From a virus (Duplodnaviria > Heunggongvirae > Uroviricota > Caudoviricetes), in the IMG/VR virus record IMGVR_UViG_2671180864_000006: a DNA stretch of 31,147 bases. The stretch is one strand, 5' to 3'. Of this stretch, positions 3,110 to 29,026 are shown in pieces. The notes below the pieces were generated by a model. That model was not told the DNA's origin, did not search any database, and saw only the letters and a program-made list of their open reading frames with translations. The position numbers were made by a program, and so were the translations under genes. The stretch's first letter is position 1. Each line of letters opens with the position of its first letter.

Positions 3110-3664
3110 TCAGCCAACAAATTTAGCAACAAATACAGCAACCGCCGCTGTGAAAATGGTTGTGCACACTGGCACAATAATGCCACTCCAACGCCACTTC
3201 GTATTATCATCAACCTTGTCAAACCGCCGATTCATCTCATCCATAATCTTGTCAAAGCGTTTATCCATCGCTTCGGTAAGCTCACCCTTCAGGCTGTTAA
3301 TGTCTGATTTGAGCTGCTCTTTCAGGTTAGCTGTATCAGATTTAAGCTCACCTTTCAGATTCGCAATATCGCATTCAAGATCACCTTTCAGATGTGCTAT
3401 GTCTGCTTTGAGTTCACCTTTCACCTCACCAACATCGGCTTTAGTTGAGAGGTTTGTAGTGCGTTCAGCAAGCGTCGCAAGGTCGTTTCTTGTTAGCGAT
3501 AAATCACCTTCGAGCCGCTCAATTCGCCTTTCAAGTTTATCTGACATTCCGCCTCCACTACTGCCGCCATCGCCACCATGATAAAGCACATCACGCTCAG
3601 AATGCGACACACTACCTGCTGAATTACCGAAAAGATTTCTTGCTACATTACCCATTATCACCAT
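3110..3664 (-). CDS. Coiled-coil protein with C-terminal transmembrane anchor (XhlA-like architecture), prophage cargo
   Basis: 184-aa ORF: Gly/Ser-rich N-terminus, five tandem 11-residue repeats (e.g. KADIAHLKGDL, ECDIANLKGEL), then a hydrophobic C-terminal helix (IIVPVCTTIFTAAVAVFVAKFV). AT-rich. Overlaps the upstream ORF by 17 nt. Start could be 3664 or 3655. Confidence 0.6.
   Translation of the reverse strand: MVIMGNVARNLFGNSAGSVSHSERDVLYHGGDGGSSGGGMSDKLERRIERLEGDLSLTRNDLATLAERTTNLSTKADVGEVKGELKADIAHLKGDLECDIANLKGELKSDTANLKEQLKSDINSLKGELTEAMDKRFDKIMDEMNRRFDKVDDNTKWRWSGIIVPVCTTIFTAAVAVFVAKFVG
3280..3444. repeat. Five tandem imperfect 33-bp repeats inside the 3110-3664 ORF
   Basis: Units recur with 33-bp period (plus-strand motif CACCTTTCAG...GATTT); they encode the 11-aa coiled-coil repeats. 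Confidence 0.75.
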
Positions 3665-4148
3665 CCTGCGCTTTGTCTTTCTCCAACCACTTCAGCACCG
3701 CAGACGTACGATAAAGGCTCAGGTAACCACAATTCAGGCAATGCAGCGTGTAATAAGTTTTGCGCATATCAGGTATGCTCTTAACATCACCCAAAAAAGC
3801 ATAAGATACATAATGCTTTATGTTCTCTTTAATTAACTCACTCTGTTCCTCCAGGGGTAGATTGTTAAAATTTTCTGGTTTCTTATTTTTATCCCAGCAA
3901 AGATCCATACTTTCTGGAACAGATAATCGCGACGATCCACATGAAGGGCAGACACTGGAGACCCCCTTCTCAGACAAGAAACGGAAGAAGATTTCTGGCG
4001 TAATCTCCATCAGCCGCTCTTTATGTTTTTTGACACGACTCATCGACTTCTTATTGATTTCATCAGCTTCTTCTTTGCATTTATCTTCTATATATTTCGA
4101 TAGTAAATAGTCATATAACTCTTTTTTTGTAGGTTTTTTTATTTCCAT
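3648..4148 (-). CDS. Hypothetical zinc-ribbon protein, prophage cargo
   Basis: 166-aa ORF with a basic Lys-rich N-terminus and two Cys pairs (CPSCG ... CLNCG); very AT-rich; its ATG (4148) lies within a few bases of the int stop, suggesting translational coupling. Confidence 0.6.
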   Translation of the reverse strand: MEIKKPTKKELYDYLLSKYIEDKCKEEADEINKKSMSRVKKHKERLMEITPEIFFRFLSEKGVSSVCPSCGSSRLSVPESMDLCWDKNKKPENFNNLPLEEQSELIKENIKHYVSYAFLGDVKSIPDMRKTYYTLHCLNCGYLSLYRTSAVLKWLEKDKAQDGDNG

Positions 4149-4150
4149 AG

Positions 4151-5128
4151 TTACATTCCTCCCAAGGGATTAAACCTCACCGCATCCTGCAAGTAATCCG
4201 GCGCAAGATGGGCATAAATCATCGTTGTCTGAATCTTTGCGTGCCCCAGAATTTTCTGGAGCGTCAGAATATTGCCGCCGTTCATCATGAAATGACTGGC
4301 GAAGGTGTGGCGCAGCGCATGAACAGCCTGGCCGTCAGGAACATCAGGTGCGACCGTTTTGATGACATCGCGAACCAATGAATAATCCAGCGTCGGAAAC
4401 ACCAGTTTCCCGCCCCGTTTTTTGATCTTTTCAAACAGGCTTTCAGAAATAGGAACGGTACGGTTTTTGCTGTTCTTCGTTTTTGAAAAAGTGATTCGAC
4501 AATGAAGAACACGGCGCTGCTCCAGTGCCGCTACCTCGCCCCATCGCGCCCCGGTCGACAGAAGGATTTCGACGGCCAGCCGTTCATCGGGATTTTCAGC
4601 CAGTGCATCCAGCAACTGAACACATTCAGACTTACTCAGATATCCCATTTCACGCTCGTTAACCTTCATTCCTTTAAGGCCTTGAACGGGGTTATCGTTA
4701 AGAAAATGGCCGGATGAGATGAGTGCGGTAAACATCGCGCTTAACGCCCCAATCTCTCGATTTATGGTGCTGGGCTGTATCCCCTGCTCTATCCTGGACA
4801 CACGTAGCTCGGTGAGCATCGTTGTATTAAGTTTATGCACGCACGGGTCATCCATTGCCTCACTCAAGCGCAGCAATTTAAGGCGCGTGTTATGCCCTGA
4901 CTTCATTAGCTGGCCGTGGTATTTCCACCACAAGTCAATAAGCACTGACAGCGGACGGCGATCAATGGAGTTTCCTTTCCACTCATTGTTATGCTGTTGC
5001 GCCAGCACCCACCGCTCATATAAAACTGCATCCGATTTCGTTTTAAATTTTTTGCGAATGCGTTTGCCTTTACGCCCCTCAGGACGCATGTCAAGAAGAT
5101 ACCCTCCCGGAATTGATTTTATGCTCAT
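4151..5128 (-). CDS. int: P2-type tyrosine integrase
   Basis: Strong similarity to P2 Int as recalled, from MSIKS... onward; catalytic motifs ARWGE, HALRHTFAS and the C-terminal catalytic Tyr region (LGHAKIQTTMIYAHL). The ORF track's 50-aa N-terminal extension (to 5278) is judged spurious. Confidence 0.92.
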   Translation of the reverse strand: MSIKSIPGGYLLDMRPEGRKGKRIRKKFKTKSDAVLYERWVLAQQHNNEWKGNSIDRRPLSVLIDLWWKYHGQLMKSGHNTRLKLLRLSEAMDDPCVHKLNTTMLTELRVSRIEQGIQPSTINREIGALSAMFTALISSGHFLNDNPVQGLKGMKVNEREMGYLSKSECVQLLDALAENPDERLAVEILLSTGARWGEVAALEQRRVLHCRITFSKTKNSKNRTVPISESLFEKIKKRGGKLVFPTLDYSLVRDVIKTVAPDVPDGQAVHALRHTFASHFMMNGGNILTLQKILGHAKIQTTMIYAHLAPDYLQDAVRFNPLGGM

Positions 5129-5177
5129 TCGTGAAGCCCCAGCGTTACAAGACCACCATGCCCCCAGCGTTCCATGA

Positions 5178-5489
5178 TTAGCCGGGCTGTGTGCCAGTCT
5201 TGCGGGATTTTTGAGAAGACGATGTGTTTTCTGGCCCATCAGGGGAGAGAGAAGGACTGATCTGCCCAGCAGCCTCATTTGTTTCGTTACTCATCAACCA
5301 CGTAGTGTATTTTTTAAATTCCGGGTGCATTGTGATTTTCAGTAAAACCTCCGTTCCCACACCTCGAATACCAGTCTCGTATTGCTTAACCGTACCAACC
5401 GCAATACCTATTGAATCCGCGAACTTTGCCTGACTAAGCCCCTCAGATTCTCGAATTGCTTTTAGCTTCTTTGATATCTCTATTGACAT
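5178..5489 (-). CDS. Immunity repressor, P2 C-like (HTH)
   Basis: 104 aa from MSIEISKK; HTH region (LSQAKFADSIGIAVGTVKQYETG) and overall layout resemble P2 C; sits immediately upstream of int on the same strand, as in P2. Confidence 0.75.
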   Translation of the reverse strand: MSIEISKKLKAIRESEGLSQAKFADSIGIAVGTVKQYETGIRGVGTEVLLKITMHPEFKKYTTWLMSNETNEAAGQISPSLSPDGPENTSSSQKSRKTGTQPG

Positions 5490-5580
5490 GGTGTGCACCT
5501 GAATACTATATTGGTTATCAGTTGAGTACCACTTGACGCTACAAAGAGCCACAAATAGCACCAGATTGAATAGGTTATCA
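5484..5580 (+). promoter_or_regulatory. Lysis-lysogeny switch region: candidate early promoter with operator-like direct repeats
   Basis: TTGACA (5484-5489), 17-bp spacer, TATATT (5507-5512) on the plus strand, overlapping the repressor start codon. Direct repeat GGTTATCA at 5513-5520 and 5573-5580 flanks the predicted start site. Confidence 0.45.
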
Positions 5581-5584
5581 CACC

Positions 5585-5863
5585 ATGGCAAAAGTCCTTA
5601 ACACATACGAACAAGCGGATTTTGAGCGTTTGGCGGCGTTCTACCCATACCGTAATGAACATGGGCTACCGGTACTTGAAGAAAGCCTAGAGGATTATGC
5701 GAAACGCACAAATCAAAGCATTCTCGCTGTAAGAAGGCAGGCTGATAGATCGGTAATTCCCGTTACTCAAGAAGGAAGAAACACAAAACGCAAAGTAAAT
5801 CTCTTCGCAATTTTCCTGAAAACCATCAGAAACGCAGAGAAATACGTGCAGATGACAAAATAA
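5585..5863 (+). CDS. Cox-position early regulator/excisionase-like protein
   Basis: 92-aa ORF divergent from the repressor, in the position of P2 cox; assigned by position and size only, sequence similarity to P2 Cox is not evident by eye. Confidence 0.45.
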   Translation: MAKVLNTYEQADFERLAAFYPYRNEHGLPVLEESLEDYAKRTNQSILAVRRQADRSVIPVTQEGRNTKRKVNLFAIFLKTIRNAEKYVQMTK

Positions 5864-5877
5864 CGAGGTGTCATTTT

Positions 5878-6216
5878 ATGCTGAAGCAACGCCGTAATTT
5901 TTGTACCGGAACAGAACGCCACGCTAACCGTTTCACTACCAGTGCATCACGCAGCAACATCCGCTACAGCCTGAGTGATACACACGCAACGCCGGATGGC
6001 TACCCAGTAAAACAAATCGGCGAGCACGCCTGGCTGATTGAGAAAGCTGGAATCGTGATCCACAAATGCCCACGCAATCCGTTTACCGGAAACCGCATTT
6101 TTGCACTGAGCTGTGGCGACAATCAGTTCGGGCAGGATTTCACATTATACGAAGCACTTCGCACGGTTGATCGTCTGCTTCGCGGGCAAAGTTTTATTAA
6201 ACAGGCTGATTTATAA
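5878..6216 (+). CDS. Hypothetical phage early protein
   Basis: 112-aa ORF with GAGG RBS about 10 nt upstream; in the early operon between cox and A. Confidence 0.5.
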   Translation: MLKQRRNFCTGTERHANRFTTSASRSNIRYSLSDTHATPDGYPVKQIGEHAWLIEKAGIVIHKCPRNPFTGNRIFALSCGDNQFGQDFTLYEALRTVDRLLRGQSFIKQADL

Positions 6217-6226
6217 CAGGTGCTTT

Positions 6227-6514
6227 ATGACCAAAGACAATGCACAAGGTGTATTTATCCGTTTTATTGATTTTCGCGGTGAACTGTTATTACGTGCATC
6301 CGCTATTGACGGAGTGACTCCGGCGGGTAAAAACGGAGCCGACGAAGCCACTTACGTTTATCTGAACGGCACGCGACTGCTTGTGGAACTTCCGTACCAG
6401 ACCGTACGAGAAATCATCAGCGAAGATGAAAAGGCACGCCAGGTTAATGGCGATGAACCCTATATCGAAATTATTTGTATGGATTCAGAAGCTGAAATAC
6501 AGAAAGCAGATTAA
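6227..6514 (+). CDS. Hypothetical phage early protein
   Basis: 95 aa taking the internal ATG at 6227; the ORF track's longer form (from 6113) overlaps the previous gene. Confidence 0.45.
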   Translation: MTKDNAQGVFIRFIDFRGELLLRASAIDGVTPAGKNGADEATYVYLNGTRLLVELPYQTVREIISEDEKARQVNGDEPYIEIICMDSEAEIQKAD

Positions 6515-7923: not shown

Positions 7924-10746
7924 ATGACGGCAGAGTACATCAGGGACTGGCAACAACCGCGCCACGCAGTGGGGCGTGAAGGAACGGGGATCCCCGCTCC
8001 TGAATCCGCGCTTTCCTCCTGGCTGGATGCCCACCGGGCAGAGAACGAGCGCCGCCAGGAAATGGCTGATGCGGCGTTCTCCGCCACGCCACTGGGCAAC
8101 CTGATTAATAAAAGCCTGGACGCACAGGAAAAACAGGACAAAACCATCACACTGGCAGGAGACGCCAGAAAACAGGCACGCGGCGCGGTGGATGAAGCCA
8201 TGGCCTCGCTGCGCCTGCTGCCGTCCTATCTGCGCGATCCGCTTATTCGCCACCTCTCCTTCCTGCGCAAAAAACAGGAAGCCGATCGCCGGAAAGGCAA
8301 AAAGAGCTGGCAGGCGGAACGCTATGCACGCGGAACCCTGCGCAAAATATTCGAACGTCTGGATCGCACTGACGGACACTGGCTGACACCGGGTTATCGC
8401 TCCCTTGCCGGACGTGAACGCCTGGACGATTTGCTTTACCTGCCGCAACTCAACAAACACCAGATACAGACGCTGGCCACCATGACGGCGGCGATGTTCA
8501 GCAGCACCTTCGAAAAACTCTGCGATGGTTTTGGCGCGACTGATGGCGAGCTGACCATGGATGTAACGCTGAAGGCGTATCAGATGCTGGCCCGCATGGC
8601 GTTACACTTACACGCCATGCCTCCGCATTATGACGCACTGACAACAGACAAAGACCGGAGGCACGAACCGGACACAGAACTGCTGCCGGGCGCAATCCTT
8701 CGCCTGACCTGTGCGGAATGGTGGAAACGCAAACTGTGGCTGTTACGTTGCGAGTGGAGAGAAGAACAACTTCGCGCCGCCTGTCTGGTTTCCAGAAAAA
8801 CATCGCCCTATCTGAGCCAGGACGCGTTAAGCGAGTTTCGCGCACAGCGCGAGAAAACACGCGATTTCCTGAAAAGTTTCATGCTGGAAAATGAAGACGG
8901 GTTCACGATTGATCTCGAGACGGTGTATTACGCGGGAGTAAGTAACCCGGTTCACCGTAAGGCAGAAATGATGGCCACCATGAAGGGGCTGGAACTTCTG
9001 GCCGAAGCCCGTGGCGACAAAGCGGTGTTTCTGACTGTCACCTGCCCGTCAAAATACCACGCCACAACGGAGAACGGTCATCCGAATCCCAAATGGAACG
9101 GGGCCACAATGCGCGACTCCAGCGATTACCTGGTTAACACGTTTTTTGCGACGGTCCGCAAAAAACTGAACCGCGACGGCCTGCGCTGGTATGGCATCCG
9201 CACGGCGGAGCCTCACCATGACGGCACCGTGCACTGGCATATGATGGTCTTTGCTCATCCGGAAGAAATCGACACCATTGTGTCCCACACCCGCGATATT
9301 GCCATTCAGGAAGATCGTCACGAGCTGGGCGATGACATAACTCCGCGCTTTAAGGCGGAGTATGTAGACGGCTCAAAAGGCACGCCAACCAGCTACATCG
9401 CCACCTACATCGGGAAAAACCTGGACAGCCGCGCCGTGGATGGCATCGACCCGAAAACGGGCAAGCCACGCGTTGACCACGAAACCGGAAAATCAATGGC
9501 CGAGAGCGTGGAACGCGCCATCGGCTGGGCGCGCCTTCACCGGGTCCGCCAGTTCCAGTTCTTTGGCATCCCCTCCCGCCAGGTATGGCGTGAACTGCGC
9601 CGCCTTGCCAGCCAGATGGCACGCAACCCGGAAGGCCCGCAACGGCTGAAGGATGACGCAATGGATGCGGTTCTTGCCGCCGCTGATGCCGGATGTTTTG
9701 CCACCTACATAGAGAAACAGGGCGGCGTACTTGTTCCACGCAAAGACTACCTGATTCGCACCGCCTACGACCTCGCCGATGAGCTGAACGATTACGGCGA
9801 ACAGAGCGTACAGATTTACGGGATCTGGTCACCACTCATCGGGGAATCCTCCCGTGTGTGCACGCATCCGGATAACTGGAAGCTGGTAAGACGCAAACCG
9901 GAAGCGGAAGACAGCGCCCGCGAAAATGGTTTTGACCTTCAGGGCGGCCCTGCCGCCCCTTGGACTCGTGGCAATAACTGTCCCCGTGTACAGGAAACGG
10001 ACAACAACGGGACAGAACAGCCGGAAGAACGGCCAGCACCGTGGCCGCAGCTCCCTGACGGCGTTGATGTGGATGAATGGATGCGCTCACTGAAACGGCA
10101 CGAACGCCGGGCGCTGATGCGTTCGCTTCGTGACAAACAGGCAAAAAACAGCAGTGATGAAATGCAGAGCTGGACACAGAGCCGCAAACAGCAGCGGCCT
10201 TTGCCTGATAACCACGAATTACTCGCTAAAGAATGGCGGGAGTCTGCTGAATCTCTCGGCCTGCATATCGGTGAACAACAGATGCAGCACCTGTTACGGG
10301 GCGGCAGTCTGTACGTTGACGGCAGCATCATTGCACCGCAGGGATTTGAAATTGTACGCAAACCGGATACCCGCCCGGACAGCCGAATCACGCAGCTCTG
10401 GCAGCGCCTGAGCCGTAATCATGGCGTAAGCAGCACGGAGATCCGCCATAACCCGGTCGCCAGCTATCTGACACAGCTGGGGGCATCAGACCCTGAAGCC
10501 GCCGCACGCCTGGCATCCACACTTCAGCAGGACCAGAACACCATGAAAACACCCGTTACCGTGCTTTCTGACATGCTGCGCGCCATCCGCGACGCAGAGC
10601 ACGCACAGAGAATCAGTGAAACCACTGAACGCGCCCGCCGCAAAGCAGACCTGCTGCGGGGTGGCCTGACCAGTGGAAACAAAAAACAGACAGAAACGGG
10701 ACTCACGAATCCCGTAAATGAGCAAAAAACGCGCAGCGATATATGA
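7924..10746 (+). CDS. A: Replication initiation endonuclease, P2 gpA-like (rolling-circle HUH)
   Basis: 940-aa ORF with HUH motif (GTVHWHMMVFA) and paired-tyrosine motif (SYIATYIGKN); carries a long low-complexity C-terminal region that makes it longer than P2 gpA as recalled. Confidence 0.88.
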   Translation: MTAEYIRDWQQPRHAVGREGTGIPAPESALSSWLDAHRAENERRQEMADAAFSATPLGNLINKSLDAQEKQDKTITLAGDARKQARGAVDEAMASLRLLPSYLRDPLIRHLSFLRKKQEADRRKGKKSWQAERYARGTLRKIFERLDRTDGHWLTPGYRSLAGRERLDDLLYLPQLNKHQIQTLATMTAAMFSSTFEKLCDGFGATDGELTMDVTLKAYQMLARMALHLHAMPPHYDALTTDKDRRHEPDTELLPGAILRLTCAEWWKRKLWLLRCEWREEQLRAACLVSRKTSPYLSQDALSEFRAQREKTRDFLKSFMLENEDGFTIDLETVYYAGVSNPVHRKAEMMATMKGLELLAEARGDKAVFLTVTCPSKYHATTENGHPNPKWNGATMRDSSDYLVNTFFATVRKKLNRDGLRWYGIRTAEPHHDGTVHWHMMVFAHPEEIDTIVSHTRDIAIQEDRHELGDDITPRFKAEYVDGSKGTPTSYIATYIGKNLDSRAVDGIDPKTGKPRVDHETGKSMAESVERAIGWARLHRVRQFQFFGIPSRQVWRELRRLASQMARNPEGPQRLKDDAMDAVLAAADAGCFATYIEKQGGVLVPRKDYLIRTAYDLADELNDYGEQSVQIYGIWSPLIGESSRVCTHPDNWKLVRRKPEAEDSARENGFDLQGGPAAPWTRGNNCPRVQETDNNGTEQPEERPAPWPQLPDGVDVDEWMRSLKRHERRALMRSLRDKQAKNSSDEMQSWTQSRKQQRPLPDNHELLAKEWRESAESLGLHIGEQQMQHLLRGGSLYVDGSIIAPQGFEIVRKPDTRPDSRITQLWQRLSRNHGVSSTEIRHNPVASYLTQLGASDPEAAARLASTLQQDQNTMKTPVTVLSDMLRAIRDAEHAQRISETTERARRKADLLRGGLTSGNKKQTETGLTNPVNEQKTRSDI

Positions 10747-10790
10747 AGCGCGCACAAAACAGGCAAAAACGGGATTTCAGAATCCCGTAA
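10693..10790. promoter_or_regulatory. Two 25-bp palindrome-containing repeats, candidate ParR operator/centromere
   Basis: AAACGGGACTCACGAATCCCGTAAA (about 10695-10719) and AAACGGGATTTCAGAATCCCGTAAA (about 10768-10792); each has 8-bp inverted arms ACGGGAnT/AnTCCCGT; one overlaps the 3' end of A, the other lies about 30 bp upstream of the parM-like start. Confidence 0.45.
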
Positions 10791-10822
10791 ACGATTAATT
10801 AATCAACATAAGGAAAAGCGAC

Positions 10823-11782
10823 ATGAAAATTTGTATCGACGACGGCTCCACCAACATCAAGCTGGCATGGACTGAGAACGGCGAACGCCGCAACGCCATC
10901 AGCCCGAACAGCTTCAAGTCGGAATGGTCTGCGCCGTTCGGTGGCATGCAGCCCGCGAACTACATGCTTGATGGCGTGCGCTATGGTTTTGATCCGGTCA
11001 GCGATCGCTTTGTCCAGACAACCGACACGCAATACCAGTACAGCGATGTAAATGTCATTGCCATTCATCACGCGCTGGTCAAATCAGGCATCACGCCACA
11101 GGAGGTGGATGTGGTTGTCACCCTGCCACTGAGCGAGTATTTCGACACAAACGCACAGCCGGACATGGCCAACATCAACCGCAAAAAAGCGAACGTTATG
11201 CGCCCGGTGGAGTACCAGAACGGCGAAGCATTCACTATCCGTAACGTGCGGGTTATGCCTGAATCCATTCCGGCTGGCTTTAAGGCACTGGCTGACATGA
11301 GTCCGTTTGAATCCCTGCTGATTGTGGATTTGGGCGGAACCACGCTGGATGTGGCAAAGGTTCAGGGGCAACTGGCAGGTATCAGCCAGGTGTTTTGCGA
11401 TCCACACGTAGGCGTTTCTCTGATGGCCGATGCCGTACTGTCGGTGATGGCCACTAACGGTATGCGCACCAGTCACCACATCGCCAATACCATTATCGAA
11501 CATCGCCATGATGAAGCCTGGCTGCGCCAGCACATCCACAATGACGCGCATTACGCCAGCCTGATGGCGGTTATTCGTGAAAAGGAAGAAACACTGAAAC
11601 AACGCGTGATCCGCGCGCTGGCGGGTTTTTCGGGTTACGGGCGGGTGATGGTTGTCGGTGGAGGGGCGGAGATTGTGGCACCCGCTATCCGCGAAGCCTG
11701 CGGAGTTAATGCGACTTTCATCGCGGACGGGGTGCCACAGTTTGCTCTGGTTAATGGGCTGTACGCAATGGACAAGGAGTAA
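10823..11782 (+). CDS. parM: Actin-like segregation ATPase, ParM/StbA family
   Basis: 319-aa ORF with actin-fold phosphate-1 (ICIDDGSTNIKL), phosphate-2 (IVDLGGTTLDV) and adenosine (VMVVGGGAEI) motifs, plus several short blocks matching plasmid R1 ParM as recalled (SPNSFK, YSDVNV, INRKK, LVNGLY). Confidence 0.8.
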   Translation: MKICIDDGSTNIKLAWTENGERRNAISPNSFKSEWSAPFGGMQPANYMLDGVRYGFDPVSDRFVQTTDTQYQYSDVNVIAIHHALVKSGITPQEVDVVVTLPLSEYFDTNAQPDMANINRKKANVMRPVEYQNGEAFTIRNVRVMPESIPAGFKALADMSPFESLLIVDLGGTTLDVAKVQGQLAGISQVFCDPHVGVSLMADAVLSVMATNGMRTSHHIANTIIEHRHDEAWLRQHIHNDAHYASLMAVIREKEETLKQRVIRALAGFSGYGRVMVVGGGAEIVAPAIREACGVNATFIADGVPQFALVNGLYAMDKE

Positions 11783-11786
11783 ACCA

Positions 11787-12098
11787 ATGACGACACCAAC
11801 CAGACGGATAAGTTTCTATCTGAAGCCTGCGGCCGTCAAGAACGAAAGCGAAGCATGCGCCTGGCTGGGCAGCCTTACACCAGAAGCCCGCAAAAGCGGC
11901 CAACGCGTGGCTTTTCTGGCCGGGCTGGCACTTCTGAAAATGAATCCAGCAGAGGCTTACCGACTGGCTGCATGGGCTGACGATGAGGCGTTATCGGTGA
12001 CACAAACCAGGACAGAACGCCCCGTGCCACAGCCAGTACCAACCGCACAGATAACCAGTCAGATAGCAGGGAATATCCGGGCATTATTTCCTGAATGA
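11787..12098 (+). CDS. parR: ParR/StbB-like small DNA-binding adaptor
   Basis: 103 aa from the ATG 5 nt after the parM stop, with AAGGAG RBS; resembles ParR in size and N-terminal pattern (ISFYLKP, RVAFLAGLAL), from memory. The track's 148-aa form overlaps parM and is rejected. Confidence 0.55.
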   Translation: MTTPTRRISFYLKPAAVKNESEACAWLGSLTPEARKSGQRVAFLAGLALLKMNPAEAYRLAAWADDEALSVTQTRTERPVPQPVPTAQITSQIAGNIRALFPE

Positions 12099-12158
12099 CG
12101 AATTTGACGGCTTTTAATTTTATCGGGGTGCACTGTCGCCCCGCACGAGGAAAACACG

Positions 12159-12683
12159 ATGAAAAAATACGAATACATGCTAATGAAAGAAGCACTGCGG
12201 GCTGGTCTGGCTCCCTGTCCTGTATCCGTAGAAGCTGTTGTTGGGAACACGATTTTCCGAACGCTGCGAAATCGCGTATCCGTGAAGATGGTTCACCAAC
12301 CACCCAAATCTACCAGCATGATCTATCTGCCGCTGCCCGAGGCTATCAAACTTATGCGTTCGCTGAAATTTGCGATTTGGATGCAGACACAAATCAACAA
12401 AGCGGTGCAAAACACCTTCGTTAAGAGACTAATACCGGAGCTTGCTGCCAGATGTGCAAAATGTACCAGACCCGCACTTCAATTTGATCTGTCATTGATT
12501 CAACAAGCTACGGAGGCAGAACTGTACCGCCTGTCACCTATCCGTGATGCTCACACGGAAGCATCAGAAATGTTCCGGCTCATGTTTCAATTTAATTTTG
12601 CCGTTCGACGCACACGCGTTCAGGTCAATCGCATGATGCAGGAGCAGGAAGAGTTAACACAGTACAAAGGGGGCAGCCAGTGA
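12159..12683 (+). CDS. Hypothetical protein, accessory-locus cargo
   Basis: 174-aa ORF with GAGGA RBS; no recognisable motifs. Confidence 0.55.
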   Translation: MKKYEYMLMKEALRAGLAPCPVSVEAVVGNTIFRTLRNRVSVKMVHQPPKSTSMIYLPLPEAIKLMRSLKFAIWMQTQINKAVQNTFVKRLIPELAARCAKCTRPALQFDLSLIQQATEAELYRLSPIRDAHTEASEMFRLMFQFNFAVRRTRVQVNRMMQEQEELTQYKGGSQ

Positions 12684-12919
12684 GTAATTCAGCACGACTA
12701 CAGCTTGGTTTTTCACCGCTATCAAAAACCATCGTATTGGCAAAAATGCGTGACTTAGGAGACGGAACAAAACGCCGCGTAGGAAATGATCGCGGTCGCG
12801 ATGTAACCAACGAGGCCGCTCAACTCGTTTGGCATCTAGTCATGGCAGAAGGCGGTGAAATTAATTGGGAGCTGGATGATGGTTCTCGTATGATTTTGAG
12901 GGCCGAGAAGAGTAAATAG
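12680..12919 (+). CDS. Hypothetical small protein, accessory-locus cargo
   Basis: 79-aa ORF; GTG start overlaps the upstream stop (GTGA), indicating translational coupling. Confidence 0.45.
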   Translation: MSNSARLQLGFSPLSKTIVLAKMRDLGDGTKRRVGNDRGRDVTNEAAQLVWHLVMAEGGEINWELDDGSRMILRAEKSK

Positions 12920-12933
12920 CTCAAGGGGGATTA

Positions 12934-13119
12934 ATGCTAAATGATGATGAAGAAGAGCTGCTTATGCAGGAATGGTCGCTCGGTGATTATGATAATGGTG
13001 AAAATGGGTGCCCGCATTGTGGCCGTTATCGTTTATGTATCTGCCAGAATGGAAAACACAGATGTGAAAAGTGCAATTGGTCTCCGGAACTTAATGACTA
13101 CGTGCCGATCGAGTGGTAG
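12934..13119 (+). CDS. Hypothetical Cys-rich zinc-finger-like small protein
   Basis: 61-aa ORF with AAGGGGG RBS; Cys cluster CPHCGRYRLCICQNGKHRCEKC. Confidence 0.5.
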   Translation: MLNDDEEELLMQEWSLGDYDNGENGCPHCGRYRLCICQNGKHRCEKCNWSPELNDYVPIEW

Positions 13120-13159: not shown

Positions 13160-13267
13160 TGCACAATAGTGCACAAATTTGCACAATTTTTTTGAACGAC
13201 TTTTTGCCCTTCCGGCCCGCGTGGCGGCTGGATCCGTCAAGGATCCGTGCATGCACAAAAAAACGCG
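13160..13267. repeat. Helically phased TGCACAA repeats and GGATCCGT direct repeat in the cos-proximal region
   Basis: TGCACAA at 13160, 13170 and 13180 (10-bp period) and again near 13250; GGATCCGT twice (13230-13237, 13241-13248); a GCGTGGCGG motif at about 13219-13227 resembles the start of P2/186-type cohesive ends. Confidence 0.5.
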
Positions 13268-13610: not shown

Positions 13611-14657
13611 TCAGGATGTGGGCTGGGTGTCTAACAGTGCGTAAGGGTTAAAGCGGATCACCTCTTCGCCAAGCCAGTCATTGATGTGCTTCATGGCCTC
13701 CATGACGGGCATCAGCTCGTTAATTGCGTAAACCCGCGCGGCCTTCTCCACATCACCAAACGCACTTTTTTCGCCCGGCATCGCCCCCATCAGTTGCGGC
13801 GGAACGCGGTGCGCAGCCAGCACATCATCACGGGATGCCGCCTTAACATTCATGAACTCATCCTTTGCGGTGATCTGCTGGAACGGCAAAATTTGCACCC
13901 CCTCTTTGCCCCCGTTGGGCGCATGAATGAGCACGTTTTTAAACGCACCACCACCACGTGCCCCCTGTAGCGTTTCTTTCAGGGAGTCCATGCTTTCGCG
14001 GTTTACCTGCGCTGCACCGATGTAGATGATGCACCCGGCGTGGGATCCGTTGTCGTAGTACAGTTTTCTGAACATGTCCGCCGAATGAGAAAGGCTGGCC
14101 GAGAGTAATGCGCCAAGATATTCCGGCATGCCGTAGATTTCCTGGTTAATATCCGGATTCATCAGGTGGCACACTTTGCCAGGACGAAACTGAAACGCAT
14201 CCTTGCCATCCTGCACATACCACCATGATTCAAGATCGCTTCCGCGTCGCATGTATTTCGCCAGGGCGTGCCGTAATTTAAGCGGTTCGCCGAGCATATT
14301 GCTCCGAAGCTCAAGGAATGCGTTACCGAACACAAACCAGTCCAGCGCCAGCGCCGAGAAATCCTGCCGGGAAAGCAGCGGGTGCGGAATATAGCAGCCG
14401 AGCAATACATTGCGCTTAAAGTAAAGCGCAGACTGATGCCAGGACGTTTGCCGGGCAGCTCTTGCCAGACCGTACCAGTCCACCGGGGTTTCATACCACC
14501 GCCCGTTATCAGCACAGTACATATTGTCCAGCAGGTCATGCCCGGTCAGGCGGTAAGGACCATCAAATGTGAATGCACTGAGCGACGATTCTTTCCTGAG
14601 CGCATCAGCGAGATCAATGCGTGAACTCATGCGCACTTTTTTATTTTTTCTGCTCAT
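13611..14657 (-). CDS. Q: Portal protein, P2 gpQ-like
   Basis: 348-aa ORF adjacent to and co-oriented with the terminase large subunit, leftmost gene next to cos as in P2. Confidence 0.85.
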   Translation of the reverse strand: MSRKNKKVRMSSRIDLADALRKESSLSAFTFDGPYRLTGHDLLDNMYCADNGRWYETPVDWYGLARAARQTSWHQSALYFKRNVLLGCYIPHPLLSRQDFSALALDWFVFGNAFLELRSNMLGEPLKLRHALAKYMRRGSDLESWWYVQDGKDAFQFRPGKVCHLMNPDINQEIYGMPEYLGALLSASLSHSADMFRKLYYDNGSHAGCIIYIGAAQVNRESMDSLKETLQGARGGGAFKNVLIHAPNGGKEGVQILPFQQITAKDEFMNVKAASRDDVLAAHRVPPQLMGAMPGEKSAFGDVEKAARVYAINELMPVMEAMKHINDWLGEEVIRFNPYALLDTQPTS

Positions 14658-16408
14658 CAGAACTCCATAACCGTGAAACGCTCGTTTTCTCCTTCGCCGC
14701 CAATCGGTTCGTTAATGACAGCAAGCATGGTTGCCCACGCAAGGTCGCCGTGGCTGATCCCCCTCGCGCGGTCCGTTTCGTAAGTGATAAAACCGCCCGG
14801 TGTTTTCACCTTACGCACGGCGTTAAAGGCCGCAACCAGCTCGCGTTCGGCGCGATCGTATTCCCACCGCCCGGCACGCATTATTTGCAGCATTTTCAGT
14901 ACCAGCGACCGTTTTGATGACAGCGTGAAGGTGTAAGGGATGGCGGCGGGAAAAAACCGTTTCACTATCTGATAGACGGCATCCCCGTGCCCGCCCGTCG
15001 CATCAATGCCGATGTGTTCCACGTTGTAGCGATACGTGAACTCTTCAATAACTCTGGCCTGCTCTTCAAATTCCAGCCCCTGAACGCGTCGCGTCTCCAC
15101 CGTTCTGAAACGACCACCAGGAACAGCCGGAGGAACCACCACGGACACAGCGCCGCTGTCGCCGTTACCACTGCTGCCGTTTGCGTCATACCCAATCCAT
15201 ACCGGACGATTCCCCATCGGGCGGGGGGCAAAGGGTTTCCAGTCTTTCCAGTCGTCGTATCCGTCAACACCGCAGCCAATCAGGATATTCAGGTTAAATG
15301 CCGATTCCCCTTCGCGGACAAACTCACACATATAGAGATTGCGGAACTCGTCTTCGGTGTTTTCATCACGAATTTCATCAATATCGGTGTGTTTCCAGCC
15401 GTGATTAACCACATCTTCCAGCGTGACAATTTGCCGCCACGTCCGGTCAGGGCAGATAAGCCCGTTATGCAGCGTTTTCCAGTCCACAGAAAAACGCTGG
15501 CGTTTATGCGCGGCCTTTTTCTCGTTCCAGCGGTCGCCGTTCCAGTAGGCGTATGCCTCGTGCGTTTCGGTGGATGGCGTGGAGAAGCAGGTGCGCCGCA
15601 GTCCGCTGAGGGTTGCCATAGCGCCAGCCACCTTGCGCAGTTCAGCAAAGCGACTGACCCAGAAAAATTCATCAAAATAAAAATTGCCCGTGTAAGATTG
15701 CGCCGTCGCAGCAGAAGTGCCGAGAAAATGCATCTCTGCGCCGTTGGAGAGGATGATTTTATCGCCCCCTTTCAGCTCCACATCGACTTCAGCCGCGGCC
15801 TTCTGAATAATGCTTTTAAACTGGAACGCCTGACGACGCGACGCAGACAAAAAAATCTGGTTACGCTGGTAAGGTTGTGCCACATCGTCACGCAGCGCCA
15901 TCAGCAGTGCTTCCTGTGCAAAATACCAGGTCGCCCCAATCTGTCGGGATTTCAGGATCATCCTGTTACGTATCCCGGCTTCCCTGCAAAGCGTCAGGGA
16001 GTCAAACCAGCCCCGCTGATGCCACTCCAGCCTGCTGATGATTTTTTCCCGCAGTGCGGCAATCTGTTCCGGCGTGAAATGATTTTTGAGTTTTTTCGCC
16101 CGGCCTTTCTTTCCTGTGGCCGTCGCATCCGGCTGGCCATCATGCAGTTTTTTAAGCTGCCGGGTCAGCAGGTCTATTTCCTTAAAGTCACCACCTGTTT
16201 TATTCTGTTTTTCAGTAAGCTGGATGAGGCGCGCATCGATGGACTGCGTGACACGCTGCACGGGTGGCGTTTCATCCCACTGGTCGCGTTTTTTCCACGC
16301 ATAAATCGTGTTCGGGTTTATTCCCATCAGACGTGATATTTCTGCGGGCGGATAACCCTGCCAGTAAAGTTGCCGCGCACGCTGGCGCACAAAAGCGTCC
16401 TGAATCAT
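14657..16408 (-). CDS. P: Terminase large (ATPase) subunit, P2 gpP-like
   Basis: 583-aa ORF of P2 gpP size, divergent from the O-N-M-L operon. Confidence 0.88.
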   Translation of the reverse strand: MIQDAFVRQRARQLYWQGYPPAEISRLMGINPNTIYAWKKRDQWDETPPVQRVTQSIDARLIQLTEKQNKTGGDFKEIDLLTRQLKKLHDGQPDATATGKKGRAKKLKNHFTPEQIAALREKIISRLEWHQRGWFDSLTLCREAGIRNRMILKSRQIGATWYFAQEALLMALRDDVAQPYQRNQIFLSASRRQAFQFKSIIQKAAAEVDVELKGGDKIILSNGAEMHFLGTSAATAQSYTGNFYFDEFFWVSRFAELRKVAGAMATLSGLRRTCFSTPSTETHEAYAYWNGDRWNEKKAAHKRQRFSVDWKTLHNGLICPDRTWRQIVTLEDVVNHGWKHTDIDEIRDENTEDEFRNLYMCEFVREGESAFNLNILIGCGVDGYDDWKDWKPFAPRPMGNRPVWIGYDANGSSGNGDSGAVSVVVPPAVPGGRFRTVETRRVQGLEFEEQARVIEEFTYRYNVEHIGIDATGGHGDAVYQIVKRFFPAAIPYTFTLSSKRSLVLKMLQIMRAGRWEYDRAERELVAAFNAVRKVKTPGGFITYETDRARGISHGDLAWATMLAVINEPIGGEGENERFTVMEF

Positions 16409-28117: not shown

Positions 28118-29026
28118 CTCGGCACAAGCGGGGAGAAAATACCGTTACTCAGTACAGCGAATACCTGGACTAATCGACAAACATTCAGCGGTGGCCTTTC
28201 TGGTGAACTATCCGGCAATGCTTCTACAGCTGCAAAATTAAAAACTGCCAGGAAAATAAGCAATGTGGCTTTTGATGGTTCCTCCGATATCACATTAAAA
28301 GCAAGTCATGTTGGTGCGTTTGCCTTAGGGAAAACAGGAAGCACCGTTGCGAATGATAAAGCAGTTGGATGGAACTGGAGTAGCGGAGCCTATAACGCAA
28401 CTATTAGTGGTGCATCAACGTTAATTATTCATTTTTATATGGGAGAAGGAAGTTGTCCTGCAGCTCAGTTTCGGATTAATTATAAAAATGGCGGTATTTT
28501 TTATCGTTCAGCCCGTGATGGTTATGGTTTTGAAGCCGACTGGTCCGAATTTTACACCACCAGAAAACCTTCAGCAGGAGATGTTGGTGCACTGCCGTTA
28601 TCTGGTGGTCAACTGAATGGTGCACTGGGTATCGGAACATCCAGTGCTCTTGGCGGTAATTCGATTGTATTGGGTGATAATGACACGGGCTTTAAACAAA
28701 AAGGCGATGGTAATCTGGATGTTTATGCTAATAACGTCCATGTTATGCGCTTTGTCTCCGGAAGCATTCAAAGTAATAAAACCATAAATATTACGGGACG
28801 TGTTAATCCCTCGGATTACGGTAACTTTGATTCCCGCTATGTGAGAGATGTCAGACTTGGCACACGAGTTGTTTAGACCATGAAGAAAGGCGTGATGTAT
28901 GAAAAATCAGGCCATGTAATCACGGGGCTTGGTATTATCGGTGAAGTCGATGGTGATGATCCGGCAGTATTCAGACCAATACAAAAGTTAATTAACGGAA
29001 CATGGTATAACGTATCGCAGGTATAA
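28100..29026 (+). pseudogene. Promoterless alternative tail-fibre C-terminal cassette with an in-frame amber codon
   Basis: Frame is open from site B (NLGLRELG...) and related to the H C-terminus (KAVGWNW, GIFYRSARDGYGFEADWSEFYTT); TAG at 28874-28876 interrupts it, and the same frame continues to a conserved fibre C-terminus ([11 protein letters not shown]) ending at 29026. Confidence 0.7.

What the first reader, a model, noticed from the sequence alone, without database searches (positions are those of the whole stretch)
10823..12098. ParM/ParR-type partition module in the accessory locus of an integrated P2-like prophage
Between gene A and cos, where P2 carries tin/old, this prophage instead has an actin-like ParM/StbA ATPase with intact actin-fold motifs, followed 5 nt later by a ParR-sized small protein. 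Type II partition systems belong to plasmids and phage-plasmids; finding one in an integrase-bearing chromosomal P2-like prophage suggests episomal maintenance, replisome or virion-DNA positioning, or a co-opted role in this accessory locus. The ParR assignment rests on size and short recalled patterns only.
Basis: partly seen in the sequence, partly recalled or inferred. Interest (0 to 1): 0.75.

Follow-up and report, generated by a model that had tools for sequence, protein, structure and literature searches.

The report
Known ParM/ParR partition module, P88-like prophage
The two genes are a genuine, intact plasmid-type (actin-like ParM plus ParR adaptor) DNA-segregation module, but it is the already annotated and published backbone module of P88-like P2-family prophages found in about a quarter of E. 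coli genomes, and its role in the phage has never been tested.

Summary
ORF 10823-11782 is a full-length ParM: both Pfam ParM domains match (E 1e-82 and 1e-69), it scores E 8.5e-93 against the solved R1 ParM, and its ATPase motifs are intact. ORF 11787-12098 is a ParR/StbB adaptor (Pfam PF10784, E 2e-23; profile match to the pB171 ParR structure, E 6.6e-13).

The module is not new. The window is an integrated P88-like (Xuanwuvirus) prophage. The same pair is annotated in GenBank and RefSeq, has PHROG "partition protein" families, and occurs in 1307 of 5426 complete E. coli genomes, almost always on the chromosome. Pfeifer et al. 2021 already flagged it as hinting at an episomal state.

What this analysis adds:
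- The pair is lineage backbone, not variable cargo: 14 of 14 phage records with P88-type gpA carry it.
- It sits at the same gpA-to-portal position in Hafnia, Plesiomonas, Serratia and Enterobacter P2-like prophages, and these ParMs form a phage-specific clade.
- ParM is under strong purifying selection (dN/dS 0.01-0.17).
- Two GGG-N10-CCC dyads 72-73 bp apart upstream of parM are conserved across three genera. They are a candidate minimal centromere.

Most likely function (inferred): segregation of the circular, gpA-replicated phage DNA while it is extrachromosomal. Interest is low to moderate.

The parts
7924..10746 (+). Gene A (gpA, HUH rolling-circle replication endonuclease, 940 aa). It lies immediately upstream and is probably in the same early transcription unit. 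Its last codons contain dyad site 1.
   Evidence: Pfam Phage_GPA E 6.6e-131 and PHROG 91 'nicking at origin of replication'. No plus-strand terminator-like site and no sigma-70 consensus was found between it and parM.
10680..10721 (.). Repeat copy 1 (42 nt) containing dyad ACGGGACTCACGAATCCCGT (10696-10715). Candidate ParR-binding site 1 of a minimal parC.
   Evidence: Direct repeat D1 and inverted repeat I3. GGG-N10-CCC at -125 from the parM ATG in E. coli, Salmonella and E. albertii copies, with equivalents at -131 (Plesiomonas) and -128 (Hafnia). Exact pattern matches in the 31-kb window occur only at the two sites.
10753..10794 (.). Repeat copy 2 (42 nt, 81% identical to copy 1) containing dyad ACGGGATTTCAGAATCCCGT (10769-10788), 73 bp downstream of site 1. 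Candidate ParR-binding site 2.
   Evidence: The 72-73 bp spacing is conserved in three genera although the sequence between the sites cannot be aligned. RNA hairpin stability is not conserved in Plesiomonas or Hafnia, which favours a DNA-binding site over a terminator.
10810..10815 (+). Ribosome-binding site AAGGAA of parM, inside a leader (ATTAATCAA...AAGGA) conserved in the E. coli, Hafnia and Plesiomonas loci.
   Evidence: Sequence; alignments.
10823..11782 (+). parM: actin-fold segregation ATPase, 319 aa, R1 ParM family.
   Evidence: dN/dS is 0.01-0.17 among seven copies.
11787..12098 (+). parR: small adaptor, 103 aa. It has an N-terminal ribbon-helix-helix region (RRISFYLKP strand) and a C-terminal N-I-x-x-L-F-P-E tail aligned with the C-terminus of R1 ParR. 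It appears translationally coupled to parM.
   Evidence: The AF2 monomer has low confidence but shows helices 20-29, 32-52 and 54-61, a disordered linker, and a C-terminal helix 87-100.
12159..13119 (+). Variable cargo downstream of the module (174-aa unknown protein, DUF7446, 61-aa zinc-ribbon protein). This is the real hotspot equivalent to P2 tin/old and is not part of the partition module.
   Evidence: Matches to relatives stop at or inside parR. Different cargo sits at this position.
13169..13194 (+). First strong plus-strand intrinsic-terminator-like site after gpA (GTGCACAAATTTGCAC followed by a T run). Probable end of the rightward transcription unit.

Best explanation
This is a functional R1-family type II (ParMRC) DNA-segregation cassette. 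It is fixed backbone of the P88-like (Xuanwuvirus) lineage of P2-family temperate phages.

Shown here:
- ParM is an intact actin-fold ATPase.
- ParR is a ParR/StbB-family adaptor that keeps both the DNA-binding N-terminus and the C-terminal tail that corresponds to the end of R1 ParR.
- Both genes are conserved at this position and under purifying selection.

Inferred mechanism:
- ParR dimers bind the two GGG-N10-CCC dyads that lie 73 bp apart just upstream of parM. This would be a reduced parC.
- ParM-ATP filaments capped by ParR push pairs of circular phage genomes apart.
- The genes follow gene A with no intervening promoter or terminator signal, so they are probably expressed with the early replication operon rather than in the repressed lysogen.
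- The substrate would therefore be the extrachromosomal, gpA-replicated circular phage DNA: after infection and before integration, and after excision.
- The pay-off would be distribution of copies to both cell halves or daughter cells. That would mean fewer abortive lysogens or element-free segregants, and/or more efficient replication and packaging.

This matches what was shown experimentally for srpMRC of SXT/R391 ICEs and AlpAC of prophage CGP3.
For: Identity.

Selection and fixation:
- ParM dN/dS is 0.01-0.17 and ParR 0.14-0.5.
- 14 of 14 phage records with P88-type gpA carry it.
- parMR is in 1307 complete E. coli genomes and this gpA type in 1319.
- Full-length 319-aa clusters hold thousands of members.

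Deep, position-specific association with P2-like phages:
- The order gpA, parM, parR, cargo, portal recurs in Hafnia, Plesiomonas, Serratia and Enterobacter, with ParM 54-63% identical.
- These ParMs form one clade apart from plasmid ParMs, which are at most 52% identical.

Candidate centromere:
- Two dyads sit at conserved positions with conserved 72-73 bp spacing in three genera.
- Hairpin stability is not conserved.
- The ParR beta-strand is TRR(I/V)SFYL in the lineages that share the dyads. It is NRKISFYL in Serratia and Enterobacter, which have a different upstream repeat architecture.
- The C-terminal NIxxLFPE tail is kept even in the 52%-identical O157 ParR allele.

Expression timing: no promoter or plus-strand terminator was found between gpA and parM.

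Precedents: srpMRC stabilises the excised, rolling-circle-replicating ICE and is expressed only with excision (PMC4489591). AlpAC with alpS sites is needed for efficient CGP3 replication (PMC4446434).
Against: - No experiment exists on this module; none was found.
- The candidate centromere has only two sites, against ten iterons in R1 parC. ParR binding is not shown. The sites could serve gpA or another regulator, and in the E. coli copies they also look like minus-strand terminators.
- A weak ParR-regulated promoter overlapping site 2 cannot be excluded, so expression in lysogens is possible.
- P2-type phages with no such module (P2, 186, Fels-2; 370 gpA-bearing records) replicate and lysogenise well, so the benefit must be quantitative.
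- gpA proteins of the ParM-bearing prophages are not a single clade: they are 30-55% identical to the window's gpA, while ParM-less Fels-2 is 42%. The module has therefore moved between backbones rather than co-evolving with one replication system.
Confidence: 0.6

Rival explanations
1. True dual lifestyle (phage-plasmid). P88-like phages can persist for many generations as an actively partitioned episomal prophage, and ParMRC is the maintenance system for that state.
For: Pfeifer et al. 2021 placed P88 among putative phage-plasmids on the basis of these genes. PLSDB holds one complete circular 34,461-bp 'plasmid' record (NZ_CP148288.1) that is a whole P88-like genome including int. A copy 100% identical over 4.1 kb is integrated in another strain from the same project.
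Against: 1453 of 1455 places in complete E. coli genomes are chromosomal. The window copy is integrated next to btuC. All copies carry an integrase. The only replication initiator annotated is the rolling-circle gpA, with no plasmid-type replicon. The circular record could simply be induced or excised phage DNA that was assembled separately. The other 'plasmid' hits are very large records or carry chromosomal genes such as pheA.
Confidence: 0.15
2. The proteins no longer segregate DNA. ParR acts mainly as a transcriptional regulator at the two dyads, for example to insulate or terminate the early operon or control downstream cargo, and ParM is retained for another filament-based role or as a passenger.
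For: ParR proteins are autorepressors in R1 (established knowledge). There are only two sites, and in the E. coli copies they resemble terminators on the minus strand. ParM and ParR remain intact in a defective O157:H7 prophage remnant.
Against: ParM is under very strong purifying selection with all ATPase motifs intact. The ParM-binding-type C-terminal tail of ParR is conserved across highly divergent alleles and genera. This is hard to explain without a ParM-ParR interaction.
Confidence: 0.12
3. A co-opted competition or defence function of the gpA-to-portal hotspot. Examples would be destabilising incoming plasmids or phages that use related centromeres (incompatibility), or excluding superinfecting relatives.
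For: The position is next to the hotspot where P2 carries tin/old. Relatives carry HicAB, a KAP NTPase or DUF3800 there. ParR exists in several divergent alleles while ParM is about 99% conserved.
Against: No PADLOC family matches either protein. The module is invariant rather than variable within the lineage. The nearest plasmid ParMs are only about 50% identical, and R1 parC is unrelated in sequence, so cross-reaction with common plasmids is unlikely.
Confidence: 0.08

Closest known systems
ParMRC (StbA/StbB/parC) of plasmid R1, and the ParR of pB171
   Same: ParM is about 47-50% identical over its full length to R1 ParM, with all nucleotide-binding motifs. ParR belongs to the same Pfam family, shares the RHH N-terminus with R1 and pB171 ParR, and has a comparable C-terminal tail. 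Gene order is the same: cis site, then parM, then parR, with coupled translation. The upstream region is A/C-rich and arranged in two blocks.
   Different: It resides in an integrative P2-like phage, not a plasmid. The candidate centromere is two 20-bp dyads 73 bp apart instead of 2 x 5 eleven-bp iterons flanking a promoter. No recognisable promoter lies between the sites. ParR is shorter (103 against 116-117 aa) with a truncated linker. The phage ParMs form their own clade.
parM/parR of Escherichia phage P88 and other Xuanwuvirus (P884B11, 520873, phiSM, and others)
   Same: This is the same module: 95-99% nucleotide identity, ParM 99.7% identical in protein, same position after gpA.
   Different: Only the ParR allele details and the downstream cargo differ. 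The window's integration site (btuC side) differs from the pheA site of the strain EA2 prophage.
srpMRC of SXT/R391 integrative conjugative elements (Carraro et al. 2015, PMC4489591)
   Same: A type II partition system in an element that normally sits integrated, replicates by a rolling-circle (HUH) enzyme when excised, and expresses the par genes only with excision functions. It was shown to reduce element loss and to stabilise a test plasmid.
   Different: SrpM is only distantly related to R1 ParM, and SrpR has no detectable ParR homology. That element is conjugative, not a phage. No such experiments exist for P88-like phages.
AlpC/AlpA/alpS of Corynebacterium glutamicum prophage CGP3 (Donovan et al. 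2015, PMC4446434)
   Same: An integrated prophage that encodes an actin-like filament protein and a co-transcribed adaptor binding sites upstream of the operon. The genes are early-induced and required for efficient phage DNA replication.
   Different: The actin-like family is different, the host is Gram-positive, and the prophage is large and cryptic. No sequence relationship was tested here.
StbA-type partition of phage-plasmid D6 (P1-like)
   Same: It is the only other phage record in the collection with a ParM of this family, at 47.8% identity.
   Different: D6 is a 91-kb plasmid-prophage that needs partition for lysogeny. The window phage integrates.

Membership tests
Type II (ParMRC) partition system | Actin-fold ATPase of the ParM/StbA family with intact phosphate-1, phosphate-2, catalytic Glu and adenosine motifs | tested here: met
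   Pfam PF06406 E 2.7e-82 and PF21523 E 1.3e-68. E 8.5e-93 against R1 ParM structures. DDGST, E147, DLGGTTLD and GGGA are invariant.
Type II (ParMRC) partition system | Small ribbon-helix-helix adaptor (ParR) encoded immediately downstream of parM | tested here: met
   PF10784 E 2e-23. Profile match to pB171 ParR 2JD3 at E 6.6e-13 over the RHH domain. 4-nt gap with a coupled ribosome-binding site. The AF2 monomer was low confidence (pLDDT 59), so the fold itself was not independently confirmed.
Type II (ParMRC) partition system | ParR C-terminal tail that docks onto ParM | tested here: inconclusive
   The N(A/I)xxLFP tail is conserved in all phage ParRs and aligns with the R1 ParR C-terminus NAMKLIN. 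A C-terminal helix 87-100 is predicted. Binding is not testable here.
Type II (ParMRC) partition system | Cis-acting centromere (parC) made of repeated ParR-binding sites next to the operon | tested here: inconclusive
   Two conserved GGG-N10-CCC dyads lie 72-73 bp apart upstream of parM in three genera. This is far fewer repeats than R1's ten iterons. ParR binding is untested.
Type II (ParMRC) partition system | Stabilises a low-copy replicon; ParM forms dynamically unstable filaments | not testable with these tools
   Requires plasmid-loss assays and microscopy or biochemistry.
Phage-plasmid (plasmid-prophage) | The lysogenic state is an autonomous extrachromosomal replicon | tested here: not met
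   The window copy is integrated beside host btuC with an integrase. 1453 of 1455 places in complete E. coli genomes are chromosomal. One 34.5-kb circular record exists, but its meaning is ambiguous.
Phage-plasmid (plasmid-prophage) | Plasmid-type replication initiator in addition to phage functions | tested here: not met
   The only replication gene annotated in P88, the EA2 prophage and the circular record is the gpA rolling-circle endonuclease.
P2 accessory/defence cargo (tin/old-type hotspot genes) | Variable presence among close relatives; match to known defence families | tested here: not met
   Present in 14 of 14 lineage members. No PADLOC hit. The variable cargo lies downstream at 12159-13119.
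Xuanwuvirus (P88-like Peduoviridae) backbone | Near-identical gpA-parM-parR block and P2-type structural genes | tested here: met
   95-99% nucleotide identity to P88 and relatives. gpA is 98% and ParM 99.7% identical in protein. Synteny matches the P88 annotation.

The most novel reading that the evidence does not exclude
P88-like phages, present in about a quarter of E. coli genomes, may have a cryptic second lifestyle. The gpA-replicated circle, actively partitioned by ParMRC through a two-dyad mini-centromere, could persist for generations as an episome or carrier state alongside or instead of integration. That would make part of the Peduoviridae facultative phage-plasmids, and it would define the smallest known type II centromere.
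Probability: 0.12. Interest if true: 0.65.

Novelty: already known. Interest (0 to 1): 0.3.

Why it matters
The module itself is ordinary annotation. What remains open is why an integrating phage lineage found in about 24% of complete E. coli genomes, including O157:H7 and ETEC strains, keeps a plasmid-type segregation machine under strong selection. If it segregates the transient circular form, it would extend to tailed phages the principle shown for SXT/R391 ICEs: integrative elements need partition during their brief extrachromosomal phase. It would also offer a compact two-site centromere for dissecting ParR-ParM mechanics. The question can be tested directly with existing P88 and K88 genetics.

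Tried and rejected
- NCBIfam gave only sub-threshold hits for ParM and none for ParR.
- phmmer with ParR alone found nothing in the PDB. A 7-sequence profile was needed.
- The genome-contig scan with ParM returned only three near-identical loci. One is labelled Vagococcus and is probably contamination. More distant relatives had to be reached through protein search and contig look-ups.
- The AF2 monomer model of ParR had mean pLDDT 59. This is expected for an obligate RHH dimer, so no fold search was run on it.
- The first dyad pattern search used the wrong spacer and found nothing. It was corrected.
- The promoter scan found no sigma-70 consensus near parM.
- The idea that the dyads are minus-strand terminators was considered. 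It was judged less likely because hairpin stability is not conserved in Plesiomonas or Hafnia.
- A defence function was rejected on PADLOC and on invariance within the lineage.
- The 'plasmid' hits at 95% identity or more were checked. One carries chromosomal pheA next to the prophage and four are 0.2-1.4 Mb records. Only one is a phage-sized circle, and its host chromosome could not be examined.
- Literature searches found no functional study of this module.
Full report
**1. Observation**

The window has two co-oriented ORFs exactly where the finding places them: 10823-11782 (319 aa) and 11787-12098 (103 aa). The second begins 4 nt after the stop of the first. An AAGGAG ribosome-binding site sits in the last codons of the first gene, which is the usual arrangement for translational coupling.

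The 319-aa protein matches both Pfam ParM domains end to end (StbA_N E 2.7e-82; ParM C-terminal domain E 1.3e-68). It also matches PHROG 691 'partition protein' and the solved plasmid R1 ParM at E 8.5e-93. In an alignment with R1 ParM and four phage relatives, the phosphate-1 (DDGST), catalytic Glu (E147), phosphate-2 (DLGGTTLD) and adenosine (GGGA) motifs are invariant.

The 103-aa protein matches Pfam Plasmid_stab_B (StbB/ParR) at E 2e-23 and PHROG 2515 at E 2.3e-56. It is 32% identical to R1 ParR over the N-terminal 56 residues. On its own it hits nothing in the PDB. A profile of seven ParRs hits the pB171 ParR structure 2JD3 at E 6.6e-13 over the ribbon-helix-helix domain.

An AlphaFold monomer model was of low confidence (mean pLDDT 59), as expected for an obligate dimer. 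It showed helices at 20-29, 32-52 and 54-61, a disordered linker and a C-terminal helix at 87-100. I did not use it for a fold search.

**2. Context**

- Gene A (gpA, Pfam Phage_GPA E 6.6e-131) ends at 10746.
- Portal and large terminase lie at 13611-16408 on the other strand.
- On the left are an integrase (4154-5278, -) and an HTH repressor (5181-5591, -).
- Beyond two unknown ORFs are host nlpC, btuD, btuE and btuC (35-2917).

The element is thus an integrated prophage.

By DNA it is a P88-like phage (genus Xuanwuvirus, Peduoviridae). The gpA-parM-parR block is 95-99% identical to Escherichia phage P88, P884B11, 520873, Citrobacter phage phiSM and others. Matches to relatives stop at the end of parR or, for a second allele group, 55 nt into parR. 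What follows (12159-13119 here) differs between relatives. The variable tin/old-equivalent cargo therefore starts after the partition genes. They are not themselves the variable cargo.

**3. How common it is, and whether it is new**

The parMR DNA is found in 1307 of 5426 complete E. coli genomes. That is 1455 places, of which 1453 are chromosomal, and RefSeq annotates them as 'plasmid segregation protein ParM' and 'plasmid partitioning/stability family protein'. The P88-type gpA is found at 80% coverage or more in 1319 genomes, so the two are essentially co-extensive.

In the phage collection, the 14 records whose gpA is at least 85% identical to this one are the same 14 that encode this ParM. 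The other 370 gpA-bearing records (P2, 186, Fels-2, Klebsiella, Yersinia and Vibrio phages) have less than 60% gpA identity and no such ParM. The only other phage hit is the P1-like phage-plasmid D6, at 47.8%.

In the literature:
- Pfeifer et al. [quoted passage not shown] - The P88 paper does not discuss it.
- I found no functional study.

Both the observation and the main interpretation are therefore already public. The function is not established.

**4. Evidence that the module is functional and old**

Among seven copies (E. coli, E. albertii, Salmonella and others), ParM shows 5-38 synonymous against 0-12 non-synonymous differences per pair, giving dN/dS of 0.01-0.17. ParR is less constrained, at 0.14-0.5.

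ParM is about 98-99% identical across clusters holding thousands of sequences. ParR occurs in several alleles down to about 52% identity. Even the most divergent alleles keep the N-terminal 20 residues (the RHH strand RRISFYLKP) and the last eight residues (N-I-x-x-L-F-P-E).

The tail motif N(A/I)xxLFP is present in all phage ParRs. It aligns with the C-terminus of R1 ParR (KKNAMKLIN). From established knowledge of R1 (Gayathri et al. 2012; recalled, not re-read here), that is the ParM-docking helix.

The next-closest ParMs lie at the same position, between gpA and the portal gene and followed by variable cargo, in P2-like prophages:

| Host | ParM identity to the window |
|---|---|
| Plesiomonas | 63% |
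| Hafnia | 62% |
| Serratia | 58% |
| Enterobacter | 54% |

Plasmid ParMs are at most 52% identical. Chromosomal hits at about 50% lie in an ICE and an integrated plasmid.

In a neighbour-joining tree of 106 ParMs, the phage-borne ones form a single clade separate from R1 and the other plasmid ParMs (no bootstrap was run).

The gpA proteins of these prophages are not a single clade. They are 30-55% identical to the window's gpA, while ParM-less Fels-2 is 42%. The module has therefore moved among P2-like backbones but always lands at the same place.

**5. Candidate centromere**

Just upstream of parM are two 42-nt direct repeats, 10680-10721 and 10753-10794, which are 81% identical. Each contains a 20-bp dyad: ACGGGACTCACGAATCCCGT and ACGGGATTTCAGAATCCCGT. 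The first lies in the last codons of gpA and the second in the 76-bp intergenic region.

Exact matches to CGGGAY-N5-AATCCCG occur only at these two places in the 31-kb window.

GGG-N10-CCC dyads occur at comparable positions relative to the parM start codon in each lineage:

| Lineage | Site 1 | Site 2 | Spacing |
|---|---|---|---|
| E. coli, E. albertii, Salmonella | -125 | -52 | 73 bp |
| Plesiomonas | -131 | -59 | 72 bp |
| Hafnia | -128 | -55 | 73 bp |

The spacing is about seven helical turns, and it is kept although the sequence between the sites cannot be aligned.

As RNA, the E. coli dyads would form -10.2 kcal/mol hairpins followed by U-rich tracts on the minus strand, so the terminator scan reports them. 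The Plesiomonas and Hafnia versions are not stable hairpins (z -0.6 to -1.5). What is conserved is a DNA dyad and its spacing, which favours a protein-binding site.

Serratia and Enterobacter have a different upstream architecture, with long inverted repeats carrying GGGAAC/GTTCCC ends. Their ParR strand reads NRKISFYL instead of TRR(I/V)SFYL. That pattern is consistent with ParR being the binding protein, but it is only correlative.

R1 parC, read from an R1-type plasmid, has two blocks of five 11-bp A/C-rich iterons flanking the promoter. The phage version would be a much-reduced centromere.

**6. Expression**

No sigma-70 consensus and no plus-strand terminator-like site lies between gpA and parM. 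The first good plus-strand terminator is at 13169.

The simplest reading is that parMR is read through from the early (cox-B-A) operon. It would then be made when the phage genome is extrachromosomal and replicating, not in the repressed lysogen. This is an inference. A weak ParR-controlled promoter overlapping site 2 is not excluded.

**7. Most likely mechanism**

I propose that ParR bound to the two dyads marks each circular phage genome, and that ParM filaments push copies apart. This would happen during the interval between infection or excision and integration or packaging.

Two experimentally studied systems show that this logic exists:
- srpMRC of SXT/R391 ICEs. It is a type II system expressed only with excision functions, it reduces loss of the excised rolling-circle-replicating element, and it stabilises a test plasmid (PMC4489591).
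- AlpAC/alpS of prophage CGP3. It is an early-induced actin-like protein with an adaptor binding upstream sites, and it is required for efficient phage DNA replication (PMC4446434).

P2-type replication by the HUH endonuclease gpA makes the ICE parallel close.

I give the combined statement a confidence of 0.6. The 'is a ParMRC-type cassette under selection' part is much firmer than the 'what it is for' part.

**8. Rival explanations**

*True plasmid-prophage state.* One complete circular 34,461-bp PLSDB record is a whole P88-like genome with int. A copy 100% identical over 4.1 kb is integrated in another strain. However, 1453 of 1455 places are chromosomal and there is no plasmid-type replicon. 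The circle may simply be induced phage DNA.

*Regulatory-only or relic role.* This is disfavoured by the strong selection on ParM and by the conserved ParM-binding-type tail.

*Defence or incompatibility role.* There is no PADLOC match, the module is invariant in the lineage, and plasmid par systems are too divergent for obvious cross-talk.

**9. Verdict**

This is a real, intact and correctly identified ParM/ParR module. It is the known, annotated backbone module of a very common E. coli prophage lineage, and its possible episomal meaning has already been published as a remark.

The additions here are its lineage-wide fixation, the phage-specific ParM clade at a fixed genomic position across five host groups (E. 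coli and its close relatives, Hafnia, Plesiomonas, Serratia and Enterobacter), the purifying selection, and a conserved two-dyad candidate centromere.

Novelty: already known. Interest: 0.3, for an open but tractable functional question.

Noticed in passing
window 3113-4148 (- strand): Two overlapping low-GC (about 0.43) ORFs of 184 and 166 aa lie between host btuC and the prophage integrase. They match only PHROGs of unknown function (9415, 4293), plus weak coiled-coil-type PADLOC hits (LmuB/ZorA, E about 1e-4 to 1e-5). They may be cargo at the att end of the prophage or a separate islet.
   Followed up: partly
window 12159-13119: The cargo after parR is a 174-aa protein with no family match, a DUF7446 protein (PHROG 1578) and a 61-aa zinc-ribbon protein (PHROG 24897). 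The same slot holds other genes in relatives: a ClpX-type zinc-finger protein in P88, ead/Ea22-like in EA2, HicAB in Serratia, a KAP NTPase in Enterobacter, DUF3800 in L016, and an HTH-M78 peptidase in L015. This is the real variable hotspot.
   Followed up: partly
window 7924-10746 (gpA residues about 797-940): The P88-lineage gpA is 940 aa. tblastn alignments to other P2-family gpA proteins cover only residues 9-796. The last ~145 residues are therefore a lineage-specific C-terminal extension, and its final codons overlap dyad site 1.
   Followed up: no
window 11787-12098 and relatives (L003, L004, L006): ParM is about 99% conserved while ParR falls into several alleles (93, 83, 74 and 52-54% identity). 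The break is abrupt, about 55 nt into parR (megablast matches end at query nt 1019). This looks like recombination inside the gene rather than gradual drift. Some genomes hold up to 3 copies, so allele diversification might avoid cross-talk between co-resident prophages.
   Followed up: partly
L003 (E. coli O157:H7, NZ_CP038302.1) 4001-6400: In O157:H7 the prophage is a remnant. An IS3 pseudogene and rearranged tail genes follow parR directly, with portal, terminase and capsid genes missing at that point. parM (319 aa) and parR (104 aa) are still intact, and dyad site 2 has one arm mutated (TCCTG).
   Followed up: no
window 28794-28811: A third near-match to the dyad (CGGGACGTGTTAATCCCT, 1 mismatch) lies in the tail-fibre/accessory region. 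About 1.4 matches with up to 2 mismatches are expected by chance, so it is probably fortuitous.
   Followed up: no
L018 (NZ_CP148288.1, 34,461 bp circular): A complete P88-like phage genome, with integrase, Com/methyltransferase and hok cargo, is deposited as a circular E. coli 'plasmid'. A copy 100% identical over 4.1 kb is chromosomal in strain Z1323HEC0067. Whether the circle is a true episome or induced phage DNA is unknown.
   Followed up: partly
L005 (NZ_JBQPOM010000071.1, 'Vagococcus sp.') and L013 (NZ_CP110658.1, IncHI2 'plasmid'): A 226-kb contig labelled Vagococcus carries a 98%-identical enterobacterial P88-like prophage, which is probably contamination or mislabelling. A 272-kb Salmonella plasmid record carries pheA-pheL plus the whole prophage, so it is either a captured chromosomal segment or a mis-assembly.
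   Followed up: no
window 12125-12144: A GC-rich dyad, CGGGGTGCACTGTCGCCCCG, lies in the 60-nt gap between parR and the first cargo gene. It has no T-run, so it does not look like an intrinsic terminator.
   Followed up: no
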